A stretch of 64,000 bases of DNA from Escherichia coli (GTDB taxonomy: Bacteria > Pseudomonadota > Gammaproteobacteria > Enterobacterales > Enterobacteriaceae). Under the pieces are notes generated by a model. That model was given only the letters and a program-made list of their open reading frames with translations. It was not told the origin of the DNA and made no database searches. Both the position numbers and the translations under genes were made by a program. This document shows, piece after piece, positions 29,262 through 29,530 of the stretch; within the stretch, counting starts at the first letter, position 1; the number at the start of each line of letters is the position of its first letter. The stretch is from NCBI RefSeq assembly GCF_045037415.1, contig NZ_CP173438.1; one strand, given 5' to 3'.

Positions 29262-29417
29262 TTACTCCTCAGGTTCGTAAGCTGTGAAGACAGCGACCTC
29301 CGTCTGGCCGGTTCGGAGTCGTACCTCGCAGAGGTCTTTCCTCGTTACCAGTGCCGTCACTATGACGGTTAAACAGATGACGATCAGGGCGATTAACATC
29401 GCCTTTTGCTGCTTCAT
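29262..29417 (-). CDS. hok: Hok-family type I toxin (HokD-like)
   Basis: MKQQKAMLIALIVICLTVIVTALVTRKDLCEVRLRTGQTEVAVFTAYEPEE. Confidence 0.85.
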   Translation of the reverse strand: MKQQKAMLIALIVICLTVIVTALVTRKDLCEVRLRTGQTEVAVFTAYEPEE

Positions 29418-29459
29418 AGCCTGCTTCCCCTTGCCTTTCGGCACGTAAGAGGCTAACCT

Positions 29460-29530
29460 ACATTTGTGAGACATAGATTGGGCCTCAGATTAATGTTAAG
29501 CGTCTTGCAGGACGCGAAATGTTAACTGGG
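29460..29530 (+). ncRNA. Putative Sok-like antisense RNA (approximate coordinates)
   Basis: Plus-strand promoter-like TTGCCT...TAACCT at 29433-29462, antisense to the hok leader; inferred from hok/sok architecture. Confidence 0.3.

What the first reader, a model, noticed from the sequence alone, without database searches (positions are those of the whole stretch)
29262..29530. hok/sok-type type I toxin-antitoxin carried within the prophage
An intact HokD-like ORF (51 aa) is preceded by a long leader; antisense promoter-like elements are present where Sok would be expected. Hok/Sok loci can act as addiction modules and in phage exclusion.
Basis: partly seen in the sequence, partly recalled or inferred. 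Interest (0 to 1): 0.3.

Follow-up and report, generated by a model that had tools for sequence, protein, structure and literature searches.

The report
Intact prophage hok/sok toxin-antitoxin cassette
This is an ordinary, complete copy of the well-known hok/sok "toxin plus antisense RNA" cassette carried by a lambda-like prophage of E. coli, nearly the same as the hokW-sokW locus already studied in Shiga-toxin phages.

Summary
On the minus strand, window 29622-29164 holds a complete hok/sok cassette:
- a hok promoter;
- a roughly 420-nt mRNA starting at 29587;
- a 170-nt leader;
- a 70-codon mok ORF, in frame with hok;
- a 51-aa Hok ORF (29417-29262; Pfam HOK_GEF, E = 6e-23; 50/51 aa identical to K-12 HokD);
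- the 3' fbi element and a terminator.

On the plus strand there is a sok promoter (TTGCCT-17 nt-TAACCT, 29431-29459) and a 71-nt Sok RNA (29466-29536). These were placed by homology to the annotated sokW of phage 933W, which is 92% identical over the cassette.

Folding reproduces the R1 hok switch: a metastable 5' hairpin, tac-fbi end pairing, ucb/SD-mok closure, and tac-ucb after 3' trimming.

K-12 hokD keeps only the part from 14 nt upstream of the hok start codon onward, so it lacks mok, sok, tac and ucb. This copy is the intact form.

Near-full-length copies occur in 2967 of 5426 complete E. coli genomes. Expression and toxicity were not testable here.

Side observations:
- Rfam's "sok" model matches the hok-sense strand, not the antisense strand.
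- A 20-nt hypervariable island coincides with Sok's 5' tail.

Verdict: already known; low interest.

The parts
29594..29622 (-). hok (mok-hok) promoter: -35 TTGGCG (29622-29617), 17-nt spacer, -10 TAGAAT (29599-29594)
   Evidence: It is the only promoter-like site found on this strand in 29050-29750, but one site is not above chance (0.6 expected). The -10 hexamer is TAGAAT in nearly all of the 58 distinct loci, with two variants (TAAAAT, TAAGAT). Sequence upstream of about 29600 is unrelated between phages. The spacing to +1 matches R1, where the -10 TATGAT lies at -12..-7 (PMC9841398).
29164..29587 (-). Full-length hok mRNA, about 420 nt, +1 = G29587, 3' end in the U-run 29175-29164
   Evidence: The Rfam RF01794 match starts at 29587. 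The 5' end GGGUGCUUGAGG is homologous to R1 GGCGCUUGAGG. MFE is -167.1 kcal/mol, z = -6.3 against shuffles.
29576..29587 (-). tac element (mRNA nt 1-12, GGGUGCUUGAGG)
   Evidence: It pairs with fbi in the full-length MFE. All 12 pairs form in all 58 distinct loci, and the three changes seen are all G-C to G-U. In nascent 30-54-nt RNA, nt 3-13 pair with nt 19-29 in a metastable hairpin of -16.9 kcal/mol.
29539..29575 (-). 5' hairpin (mRNA nt 13-49); its 5' arm also supplies the partner for the metastable tac hairpin
   Evidence: There is a compensatory A-U to G-C change in 5 loci at alignment columns 108/140.
29526..29534 (-). ucb / anti-SD (mRNA nt 54-62, AAGCCCCAG)
   Evidence: It pairs with tac (GGG.GCUU/AAGCCCC) once fbi is removed. 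Alternatively it pairs with the mok SD region (GCCCCAG/CUGAGGC with one C.A mismatch); that fold is 0.5 kcal/mol above the MFE and becomes the MFE in the consensus-like G29428A variant. The same C.A mismatch (C74/A106) is described for R1 in PMC9841398.
29449..29486 (-). Sok-target hairpin: SD-mok GAGG (29486-29483) closed by dcb GCCUC (29453-29449). The inner stem and 7-nt loop CUCACAA contain the mok AUG (29474-29472).
   Evidence: The loop carries a YUNR motif (CUCA). The outer stem is invariant in 58 loci.
29461..29480 (-). Hypervariable island (mok codons 1-5 plus 6 nt upstream), which corresponds to the 5' end of Sok
   Evidence: Mean column entropy is 0.63-0.94 here against 0.25 or less in nearly all other 10-nt bins of the cassette (one 5'-hairpin bin reaches 0.37). 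There are 14 alleles in 58 loci and 27 in 167 cassettes.
29262..29474 (-). mok ORF: 70 codons, AUG 57 nt upstream of the hok AUG and in the same frame, so it encodes an N-terminally extended Hok
   Evidence: The arrangement is the same as the annotated mokW/hokW of phage 933W. In relatives the offset is 56, 57 or 58 nt; in R1 it is 56 nt.
29262..29417 (-). hok ORF, 51 aa, MKQQKAMLIALIVICLTVIVTALVTRKDLCEVRLRTGQTEVAVFTAYEPEE
   Evidence: Pfam HOK_GEF 6.3e-23. PHROG 251 'MokW-like host killing' 4e-33. Identity is 50/51 to K-12 HokD, 46/51 to HokW, and 42% to R1 Hok.
29231..29252 (-). 3' UTR stem-loop GGCGGGGGAGAAAUCCCUCGCC, a candidate road-block for 3' exonuclease trimming
   Evidence: Nine pairs, 100% paired in 58 loci, with G-U/A-U/G-C variation at one pair. 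The road-block role is inferred from the R1 model (PMC1635323).
29198..29210 (-). fbi element (mRNA nt 378-390, CCUCAACGCACCC)
   Evidence: It pairs with tac. It is retained as a relic in K-12 hokD.
29164..29191 (-). hok intrinsic terminator (hairpin 29191-29174 followed by a U-run)
   Evidence: Homology between phages stops right after it.
29431..29459 (+). sok promoter: -35 TTGCCT (29431-29436), 17-nt spacer, -10 TAACCT (29454-29459)
   Evidence: Read from the sequence. It aligns with the corresponding R1 region (TTGCGC / TATCCT on the antisense strand). It lies 6 nt upstream of the position equivalent to the annotated 5' end of sokW. Across 58 loci the -10 is TAACCT or TAATCT. The consensus scan did not detect it.
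29466..29536 (+). Sok antisense RNA, 71 nt: roughly 9-13-nt single-stranded 5' tail (GUGAGACAUAGAU...), a long G.U-containing hairpin, and a U-rich 3' end
   Evidence: The ends are transferred from the 933W sokW misc_RNA, whose 5' end is opposite mok nt 9 and which is 71 nt long. The fold is -29.3 kcal/mol, z = -5.3. The Sok strand folds about 11 kcal/mol better than the hok-sense strand in 23 of 23 distinct sequences. A transcript has not been shown for this locus.

Best explanation
Window 29164-29622 is a complete, apparently functional hok/sok-type (hokW-sokW / hokD lineage) type I toxin-antitoxin cassette. It sits in the nin region of a lambdoid E. coli prophage.

Proposed mechanism:
1. 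A stable mRNA of about 420 nt is made from the hok promoter.
2. While nascent, its 5' end (tac) is held in a metastable hairpin.
3. When the transcript is complete, tac pairs with fbi near the 3' end, and the anti-SD box (ucb) closes the mok ribosome-binding site. Neither ribosomes nor Sok can then bind.
4. Slow 3' trimming removes fbi. tac captures ucb, and the mok start region is presented in a hairpin.
5. The constitutively made, unstable 71-nt Sok RNA binds that hairpin through its single-stranded 5' tail. This blocks mok translation, and therefore the coupled hok translation, and marks the duplex for RNase III cleavage.
6. If Sok supply stops, Mok and Hok are translated and the 51-aa Hok peptide depolarises the inner membrane.

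Shown here: presence, integrity and conservation of every element, and the predicted alternative folds.

Inferred from R1 and from hokW-sokW: transcription, processing, Sok instability and toxicity.

The biological role is less certain. It is most likely the one shown for hokW-sokW, with Hok produced on prophage induction and aiding lysis and phage release. A contribution to prophage maintenance is possible.
For: Family membership:
- Pfam HOK_GEF 6e-23.
- Rfam RF01794 120.5 bits over the whole leader.

Folds that reproduce the R1 switch:
- tac-fbi pairing appears in the unconstrained MFE, z = -6.3.
- After in-silico removal of fbi, the 5' end switches to tac-ucb.
- The ucb/SD-mok closed form lies within 0.5 kcal/mol of the MFE and carries the same C.A mismatch as R1 (PMC9841398).
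- The nascent transcript forms a metastable hairpin of -16.9 kcal/mol.

Conservation:
- The tac-fbi helix is 100% paired in 58 distinct loci; overall 94.9% of cells are paired, against 34-42% when partners are slid.

Sok:
- The predicted fold is a 5' tail plus hairpin plus U-run, z = -5.3.
- The antisense strand is the more stable one in 23/23 sequences.
- The position is identical to the annotated 71-nt sokW of 933W.

Experimental support from relatives:
- hokW-sokW (92% nt identity, Hok 46/51 aa) is a functional type I TA whose sokW disappears, and whose HokW appears, on RecA-dependent induction (PMC8621323).
- K-12 HokD (50/51 aa identical) is toxic when expressed (bioRxiv 10.1101/2025.08.07.668861).

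Cassette behaviour:
- Homology between phages stops sharply at the promoter and the terminator.
- A copy covering at least 80% of the query is present in 2967 of 5426 complete E. coli genomes.
Against: - No transcript, processing, toxicity or antitoxin data exist for this copy.
- The sok promoter is weak by consensus (7/12) and was missed by the generic scan.
- This allele has GGGG where 53 of 58 relatives have GGAG in the hok SD region (position 29428). That slightly favours an alternative ucb pairing and may alter hok translation.
- Covariation support is thin because the relatives are close: 4 pairs with a change on both sides.
- The structure tested was derived from this same sequence.
Confidence: 0.85

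Rival explanations
1. The cassette is structurally intact but physiologically silent. It is a selfish, hitch-hiking moron that is always repressed by Sok and never contributes to prophage or host biology, like the chromosomal hok loci that failed to show post-segregational killing.
For: - Chromosomal hokA, hokB and hokC loci did not mediate PSK or respond to rifampicin (cited in bioRxiv 10.1101/2025.08.07.668861).
- The cassette has discrete boundaries and variable flanks, typical of a mobile moron.
- It occurs in at least two different positions in phage genomes: the nin region here, and next to ead/Ant-type genes in 933W.
Against: - All regulatory elements are under visible purifying selection across more than 150 cassettes.
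- The close relative hokW-sokW is activated on induction, and deleting it halves phage release (PMC8621323).
- A single chromosomal copy of R1 hok without Sok is lethal (PMC9841398).
Confidence: 0.15
2. The main role of the cassette is defence of the lysogen. A superinfecting lytic phage shuts off host transcription, unstable Sok decays, Hok kills the cell early and the infection aborts, as reported for R1 hok/sok against T4.
For: - R1 hok/sok on a high-copy plasmid reduced T4 plating by 42% and plaque size by about 85% (summarised in PMC8621323 and PMC10305079).
- The neighbouring gene matches a 'Ren-like exclusion protein' PHROG, so this part of the prophage carries other accessory or exclusion genes.
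- The mechanism needs only what is present here: an unstable antisense RNA and a stable mRNA.
Against: - No enrichment of hok next to defence systems was found in the large survey (bioRxiv 10.1101/2025.08.07.668861).
- The only experiment on a prophage copy found a pro-phage role (PMC8621323).
- Nothing in the sequence distinguishes this role from the others.
Confidence: 0.2
3. The locus is a decayed remnant like hokD (relF) of E. coli K-12 Qin: a Hok ORF without its own regulation.
For: The Hok protein is 98% identical to K-12 HokD, and RefSeq annotates only a hokD CDS here.
Against: K-12 homology covers only window 29166-29431. K-12 has relBE in place of the promoter, tac, ucb, mok start and sok, whereas all of these are present and conserved in the window.
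Confidence: 0.02

Closest known systems
hokW-mokW-sokW of Stx2 phage 933W / Sakai prophage Sp5 (annotated in NC_000924.1; studied in PMC8621323)
   Same: - 92% nucleotide identity over the cassette.
- Hok 46/51 aa identical.
- The same 70-codon in-frame mok and the same 71-nt Sok position.
- tac, ucb, dcb and fbi have identical sequences.
- Both are carried on a lambdoid prophage.
   Different: - Different Sok 5' tail and target-loop allele: window hok-sense CTATGTCTCACAAATGT against 933W CCATGCTGAACACATGT.
- Different Hok C-terminus: FTAYEPEE against FVDYESEK.
- Different genomic position: the nin region between DUF977/QueH and DUF968-RusA-Q here, and beside ead/Ea22-like and YgiW-like genes in 933W.
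- The sequence downstream of fbi, including the terminator, is not homologous in 933W.
hokD (relF) of the Qin cryptic prophage, E. coli K-12
   Same: - Hok 50/51 aa identical.
- The 3' UTR with fbi and terminator is 97% identical.
- The downstream neighbourhood is the same type (DUF968/YdfU, Q).
   Different: K-12 lacks everything upstream of -14 from the hok AUG: the hok promoter, tac, the 5' hairpin, ucb, Sok, the mok SD and start, and both sok promoter hexamers. relB-relE lie there instead. The K-12 copy is regarded as inactivated by rearrangement (PMC12214031, citing Pedersen and Gerdes 1999). The window copy is the intact form.
hok/sok (parB) of plasmid R1, the experimental archetype
   Same: - The same order of elements.
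- Recognisable 5' end (GGCGCUUGAGGCU against GGGUGCUUGAGGCU), ucb (AGCCCC), SD-mok GAGGC, dcb UAGCCUCUUAC and sok promoter position.
- Both match RF01794 on the hok-sense strand.
- The same C.A mismatch in the ucb/SD-mok helix (PMC9841398).
   Different: - Hok is only 42% identical.
- R1 mok is 56 nt upstream and out of frame with hok; here it is 57 nt upstream and in frame.
- Sok is 64 nt in R1 (PMC1635323) against 71 nt here, owing to a 16-nt extension of the hairpin (alignment).
- R1 is plasmid-borne with a demonstrated PSK role.
hokC/mokC (gef) and other chromosomal hok loci of E. coli
   Same: An in-frame mok of about 69-70 codons, annotated as MokC. Nucleotide identity is 77-79% over the leader and ORF (hits H24, H25, H29).
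   Different: These are chromosomal rather than prophage-borne. In K-12 they are interrupted by IS elements (PMC12214031). They belong to a different Hok subfamily.

Membership tests
[quoted passage not shown] | Small (about 50 aa) Hok/Gef-family membrane toxin ORF | tested here: met
   Pfam PF01848 at 80.6 bits against a cutoff of 22. PHROG 251 at 4e-33. Identity is 50/51 to HokD and 42% to R1 Hok.
[quoted passage not shown] | hok mRNA leader with the conserved sequence and structure modelled by Rfam RF01794 | tested here: met
   120.5 bits against a gathering score of 59, E = 6.6e-27, full model 1-157, on the hok-sense strand. The R1 control gives 87.2 bits on its hok-sense strand.
[quoted passage not shown] | Overlapping upstream mok reading frame with its own SD, whose translation reaches the hok start | tested here: met
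   SD GAGG at 29486-29483 and AUG at 29474; 70 codons running through hok. The arrangement matches annotated mokW. Translational coupling itself is not testable here.
[quoted passage not shown] | cis-encoded antisense Sok gene: a promoter inside the mok/hok leader, an RNA with a single-stranded 5' tail complementary to the mok start region, plus a terminator hairpin | tested here: met
   Promoter hexamers at 29431-29459. The predicted 71-nt RNA folds as tail plus hairpin plus U-run, z = -5.3. The antisense strand is favoured by 11 kcal/mol in 23/23 sequences. The RNA is co-linear with annotated sokW. Only sequence features were tested; the promoter fails a generic consensus scan.
[quoted passage not shown] | Sok RNA is actually transcribed, is unstable, and represses hok | not testable with these tools
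   This needs a Northern blot or RNA-seq and genetics. It has been shown for the 92%-identical hokW-sokW (PMC8621323).
[quoted passage not shown] | Long-range tac-fbi pairing of the mRNA 5' and 3' ends | tested here: met
   Twelve pairs in the unconstrained MFE, 100% paired in 58 distinct loci. Both sides are nearly invariant, so there is no covariation to count.
[quoted passage not shown] | Alternative pairings of ucb: with SD-mok in the closed form and with tac in the 3'-trimmed open form | tested here: met
   Truncation in silico switches the 5' end to tac-ucb. The closed ucb/SD-mok form lies 0.5 kcal/mol above the MFE and is the MFE for the consensus-like variant. This is thermodynamic prediction only.
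[quoted passage not shown] | Metastable 5' hairpin in the nascent transcript that sequesters tac | tested here: met
   Prefixes of 30-54 nt fold with nt 3-13 paired to nt 19-29, -16.9 kcal/mol. Prediction only.
[quoted passage not shown] | YUNR (U-turn) motif in the loop of the Sok-target hairpin | tested here: inconclusive
   The window allele has CUCA in its 7-nt loop. Only 82 of 167 related cassettes show a YUNR in the predicted loop. That this motif defines the family is recalled from Franch et al. 1999, not taken from a paper read here.
[quoted passage not shown] | Toxicity of Hok and post-segregational or induction-linked killing | not testable with these tools
   Toxicity is reported for K-12 HokD (bioRxiv 10.1101/2025.08.07.668861) and for HokW (PMC8621323). 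This exact peptide differs from HokD by I34L.
K-12-type truncated hokD (relF) | relBE immediately upstream; no leader, mok or sok | tested here: not met
   The window has the full leader, and QueH lies upstream instead of relBE.

The most novel reading that the evidence does not exclude
Two linked ideas go beyond what is described.

(1) Induction-coupled activation by read-through. The cassette sits co-oriented inside the prophage early-right operon. This orientation held wherever a flanking gene was detected in 120 related loci. No terminator-like site lies between the replication genes and the cassette. After repressor cleavage, sense read-through transcription would therefore run head-on into the sok promoter and would also titrate Sok. 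That could explain the unexplained RecA-dependent loss of sokW reported for Sp5.

(2) Private Sok specificity. The 20-nt hypervariable island, which is Sok's 5' tail and the loop of its target hairpin, has at least 27 alleles differing by a median of 7 of 17 nt. This could make each prophage's Sok private, so that co-resident prophage cassettes do not silence each other.

Neither idea is supported by a positive test here. The co-residence test showed no depletion of identical alleles.
Probability: 0.2. Interest if true: 0.45.

Novelty: already known. Interest (0 to 1): 0.1.

Why it matters
It matters little beyond annotation. The locus is one more copy of a cassette present in more than half of complete E. 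coli genomes, and it was described in phage 933W in 1999 and studied in Sp5 in 2021.

Practical value:
- RefSeq annotates only the hokD CDS here. The mok ORF, the Sok RNA (29466-29536, plus strand) and the mRNA ends can be added.
- This copy shows what the truncated K-12 hokD looked like before relBE replaced its 5' half.
- Users of Rfam RF01794 should know that the model matches the hok-sense strand.
- The catalogue of Sok-tail alleles could be used to test cross-talk between co-resident prophage cassettes.

Tried and rejected
- **Generic sigma-70 scan.** It finds the hok promoter but not the sok promoter. I therefore relied on homology and did not claim a consensus match.
- **blastn 'distant' against plasmids.** It did not reach R1 hok/sok because the DNA is too diverged. 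I fetched R1 through the Hok protein instead.
- **Reading the Rfam 'sok' hit as the antisense RNA.** Rejected. The hit is on the hok strand and ends at the hok AUG, and R1 behaves the same way.
- **ucb-GGGG pairing in the MFE.** It is not conserved: 53 of 58 relatives have GGAG. I replaced it with the R1-like ucb/SD-mok pairing, which is near-isoenergetic.
- **Orthogonality test.**
  - In 19 of 21 isolate genomes with two or more cassettes, every cassette has a different island allele.
  - Random expectation is already about 90% different.
  - Two genomes carry three identical copies.
  - The permutation gave P(as few or fewer same-allele pairs) = 0.98, so there is no evidence for avoidance.
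  - The sample is incomplete and may contain assembly duplicates.
- **Hairpin retention in island alleles.**
  - 26 of 27 alleles fold better than the mean of their shuffles.
  - The mean z is only -1.3.
  - The alleles are not independent.
  - The signal is weak.
- **YUNR motif.** It is present in the window allele but in only 82 of 167 relatives, so it was not used as evidence.
- **Supplement of PMC9841398.** I sought it for the Sok-promoter mutations, but it is not held.
- **Covariation on alignment A1.** It is limited by the closeness of the sequences, and the structure was derived from the window sequence.
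Full report
**What is in the sequence**

The feature lies on the minus strand.
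- The 51-codon ORF runs from 29417 to 29262. It encodes MKQQKAMLIALIVICLTVIVTALVTRKDLCEVRLRTGQTEVAVFTAYEPEE.
- It matches Pfam HOK_GEF at E = 6.3e-23 and PHROG 251 "MokW-like host killing" at 4e-33.
- It is 50/51 aa identical to K-12 HokD, 46/51 to HokW of phage 933W, and 42% identical to R1 Hok.
- Rfam RF01794 ("sok") matches 29587..29412 at 120.5 bits against a gathering score of 59, E = 6.6e-27.

None of this is a chance match.

**Rfam strand caveat**

The Rfam hit is on the same strand as hok. It starts at the mRNA 5' end and ends at the hok AUG. A control on plasmid R1 gives the same orientation, with the hit on the hok strand at L003 432-603. RF01794 therefore models the hok mRNA leader, not the antisense RNA. 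The hit shows that the leader is intact. It does not show that an antisense RNA exists.

**Anatomy in window coordinates**

Minus strand:
- hok promoter: TTGGCG (29622-29617), 17 nt, TAGAAT (29599-29594). It is the only promoter-like site on this strand in the region.
- mRNA +1: G29587. This is placed by the same -10 to +1 spacing as R1, whose -10 TATGAT occupies -12..-7 (PMC9841398).
- tac: 29587-29576.
- 5' hairpin: 29575-29539.
- ucb: 29534-29526.
- SD-mok GAGG: 29486-29483.
- mok AUG: 29474.
- dcb GCCUC: 29453-29449.
- hok SD region: 29432-29424.
- hok ORF: 29417-29262.
- 3' stem-loop: 29252-29231.
- fbi CCUCAACGCACCC: 29210-29198.
- Terminator hairpin: 29191-29174, followed by a U-run to about 29164.

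Plus strand:
- sok promoter: TTGCCT (29431-29436), 17 nt, TAACCT (29454-29459).
- Sok RNA: 29466-29536.

The Sok ends were transferred from the annotated sokW misc_RNA of phage 933W. That RNA is 71 nt long and its 5' end lies opposite mok nucleotide 9. I had independently predicted the same start from the promoter spacing.

It misses the hok promoter, tac and the whole 3' UTR.

**Does the RNA fold like a hok mRNA?**

- The unconstrained MFE of the 422-nt transcript is -167.1 kcal/mol, z = -6.3. It pairs nt 1-12 with nt 378-390, which is the tac-fbi interaction.
- Removing fbi in silico makes the 5' end switch to GGG.GCUU/AAGCCCC, which is the tac-ucb stem.
- The closed form described for R1 has ucb acting as an anti-SD on the mok ribosome-binding site. 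Here it is GCCCCAG/CUGAGGC with one C.A mismatch. It lies only 0.5 kcal/mol above the MFE. It becomes the MFE if position 29428 carries the A found in most relatives. R1 has the same C.A mismatch, C74/A106 (PMC9841398).
- Prefixes of 30-54 nt fold into a hairpin that sequesters tac, nt 3-13 with nt 19-29, at -16.9 kcal/mol. This corresponds to the metastable structure described for R1.
- In both the full-length and trimmed predictions, the mok start sits in a hairpin closed by SD-mok and dcb. Its 7-nt loop, CUCACAA, is complementary to the first bases of Sok.

These are thermodynamic predictions, not measurements.

**Evidence for Sok**

- The predicted 71-73-nt RNA folds into an unpaired 5' tail, a long hairpin and a U-rich end, at -29.3 kcal/mol, z = -5.3.
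- The hairpin contains G.U pairs, which become C.A mismatches on the other strand. Across 23 distinct sequences of this segment, the Sok strand folds at a mean of -29.5 kcal/mol and the hok-sense strand at -18.2. Sok is the more stable strand in 23 of 23. This asymmetry is what a functional antisense RNA would produce.
- The promoter hexamers are poor matches to consensus, and the scan did not list them.
- They occupy the same position as the corresponding R1 region and lie just upstream of the annotated sokW start.
- The T, A and final T of the -10 hexamer are invariant in 58 loci. These bases also lie in mok and next to dcb, so their conservation cannot be credited to the promoter alone.

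**Relatives**

- 4937 of 5426 complete E. coli genomes have a match, and 2967 have a copy covering at least 80% of the query.
- 102 deposited phage genomes carry the cassette, many of them Stx-converting phages.
- 751 plasmid records have a match, including roughly 95-kb plasmids at about 87% identity.
- K-12 aligns only over window 29166-29431. relB-relE occupy the place of the leader. This agrees with the literature statement that K-12 hokD was inactivated by rearrangement (PMC12214031).
- The closest described locus is hokW-mokW-sokW of 933W/Sp5, at 92% identity over the cassette. It has identical tac, ucb, dcb and fbi and the same in-frame 70-codon mok.
- That locus has been shown to be a functional type I toxin-antitoxin system (PMC8621323). 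sokW disappears and HokW appears after RecA-dependent prophage induction, about an hour before the endolysin. Deleting the locus halves phage release.

**Comparative analysis**

The alignment covers 58 distinct HokD-type loci from IMG/VR plus the window.
- Homology between phages begins at the hok -10 hexamer and ends at the terminator U-run, and the flanks are unrelated. The unit is a discrete cassette of about 430 nt.
- The tac-fbi helix is paired in every sequence.
- Across the whole structure, 94.9% of cells are paired, against 34-42% when partners are slid.
- Compensatory changes are few (4 pairs) because the sequences are close, and the tested structure came from the window sequence. This is support for compatibility, not strong covariation evidence.

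**Genomic context**

- Window 20100-38700 is 99.995% identical to the chromosome of E. coli strain 439.
- That region's annotation shows a lambdoid prophage. It carries exonuclease, dicB, a LexA-family repressor, Cro, YdaT, replication proteins, DUF1627, DUF977, QueH, hokD, DUF968, RusA, the Q antiterminator, two tRNAs, holin and lysozyme.
- DicF lies at 36015-36066.
- In 120 further phage loci, the flanking genes are always on the same strand as the cassette whenever they are present. These are DUF1627/DUF977 upstream and orf90/DUF968/RusA/Q downstream. The usual site is therefore the nin region, co-oriented with the early-right operon.
- In 933W the cassette sits elsewhere, beside ead/Ea22-like and YgiW-like genes.

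**Mechanism and role**

The best-supported mechanism is the canonical one:
1. The full-length mRNA is locked by tac-fbi and ucb/SD-mok.
2. Slow 3' trimming opens it.
3. Sok binds the mok start hairpin through its 5' tail and blocks mok, and with it hok.
4. Loss of Sok lets Hok be made.

What is shown here is the presence, integrity and conservation of the parts, and the predicted folds. Transcription, processing, instability and toxicity are inferred from R1 (PMC1635323, PMC9841398) and from hokW-sokW (PMC8621323).

The role is less certain. The candidates are help with lysis on induction (shown for Sp5), prophage maintenance, and exclusion of lytic phages (shown weakly for R1 against T4). The sequence does not discriminate between them. 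A silent selfish element also remains possible, since wild-type chromosomal hok loci failed in PSK tests (bioRxiv 10.1101/2025.08.07.668861).

**Side observations**

- Hypervariable island. One segment inside the otherwise conserved cassette is hypervariable: 29480-29461, covering mok codons 1-5 plus 6 nt upstream. Its entropy is 0.63-0.94, against 0.25 or less in nearly all other bins. There are 14 alleles in 58 loci and 27 in 167 cassettes. It is the 5' tail of Sok and the loop and inner stem of its target hairpin. Tail targets differ by a median of 7 of 17 nt.
- mok offset. The distance from the mok AUG to the hok AUG is 57 nt in most loci, which is in frame. It is 56 nt in one common allele, where mok ends after 19 codons in a UGA that overlaps the hok AUG. 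It is 58 nt in a few, giving a 68-codon out-of-frame ORF as in R1. This fits the view that translation of mok matters, not its product.
- Co-residence. I tested whether co-resident cassettes avoid sharing an island allele and found no such signal.

**Verdict**

The observation and the interpretation both hold. The thing itself is a well-known kind of element. A near-identical relative is already annotated and has been studied experimentally. Interest is low.

Noticed in passing
window 29412-29587 (-); L003 432-603 (+): Rfam RF01794 'sok antitoxin' matches the hok-sense strand, from mRNA +1 to the hok AUG, both here and in plasmid R1. The real Sok gene is on the opposite strand and covers only part of that interval. 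Strand calls from this family should be flipped and trimmed.
   Followed up: yes
window 29461-29480 (-); alignment A1 columns about 200-222: A 20-nt hypervariable island lies inside an otherwise highly conserved cassette. It has 27 or more alleles in 167 cassettes, and tail targets differ by a median of 7 of 17 nt. It coincides with the 5' tail of Sok and the loop and inner stem of the target hairpin. Co-resident cassettes differed in 19 of 21 genomes, but that is what random sampling predicts.
   Followed up: partly
window 29417-29474 (-); loci L047, L078, L043: The mok-hok offset varies among close relatives:
- 57 nt, in frame, giving a 70-aa extended Hok (here and in 933W).
- 56 nt, giving a 19-codon mok ending in a UGA that overlaps the hok AUG.
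- 58 nt, giving a 68-codon out-of-frame ORF as in R1.

L043 has ATA in place of the mok ATG.
   Followed up: partly
window 29274-29280 (-), A29278: The Hok Tyr47 codon sits in UUACGAA, which resembles a tRNA-Arg anticodon loop. The motif is invariant in 58 loci and also present in R1 hok. K-12 hokC, hokD and hokE mRNAs are reported to be A-to-I edited by TadA at the equivalent Tyr, recoding it to Cys (hokD 6%; PMC12214031).
   Followed up: partly
window 29428 (-): This allele has G (hok SD region AAGGGGAAG) where 53 of 58 relatives have A (AAGGAGAAG). The G creates an alternative four-base-pair partner (GGGG) for the CCCC of ucb in the MFE and weakens the match to the anti-SD. Only the window and four very close relatives carry it.
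   Followed up: partly
window 29655-30341 (-): A QueH (epoxyqueuosine reductase, Pfam PF02677, E = 1e-65) gene lies directly upstream of the cassette inside the prophage. Its stop codon is 32 nt before the hok -35 hexamer. It is present next to the cassette in only 8 of about 100 related phage loci. A tRNA-modification enzyme on a lambdoid prophage that also carries two tRNA genes is curious.
   Followed up: no
window 29039-29218 (+): RefSeq annotates a 59-aa 'hypothetical protein' (WP_001112740.1 in strain 439) antisense to the hok 3' UTR, fbi and terminator. It is probably a spurious call over structured RNA.
   Followed up: no
window 23751-23940 (-), 24640-24889 (-), 36015-36066 (+): Other RNA genes lie in the same prophage: STnc100 sRNA (132 bits), two tRNAs (annotated Ile and Arg in strain 439), and DicF (76.7 bits) in the dicB operon.
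   Followed up: no
window 29191-34239 (-): No terminator-like site was found on the minus strand between a weak one at 34256-34239 and the hok terminator at 29191-29174. The hok terminator is therefore the first intrinsic terminator an early-right transcript would meet before RusA and Q, and such a transcript would run head-on into the sok promoter. Overall terminator counts in the region are not above chance (7 found, 8.9 expected).
   Followed up: partly
loci L162, L167, L174, L175, L181, L078: A second cassette class has a different, shorter Sok body: the hok-sense sequence reads CCCCACCCGACTATAAATCGAAGTGAGGC, and the predicted Sok is 53 nt. It lacks the 16-nt hairpin extension but keeps tac, dcb and a near-identical hok ORF. 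This suggests modular exchange of the Sok hairpin as well as the tail.
   Followed up: no
plasmid hits H33-H48: Roughly 87%-identical HokD-type cassettes occur on many E. coli and Salmonella plasmids of about 90-145 kb (most about 95 kb). They may be phage-plasmids, so this lineage is not confined to integrated lambdoid prophages.
   Followed up: no
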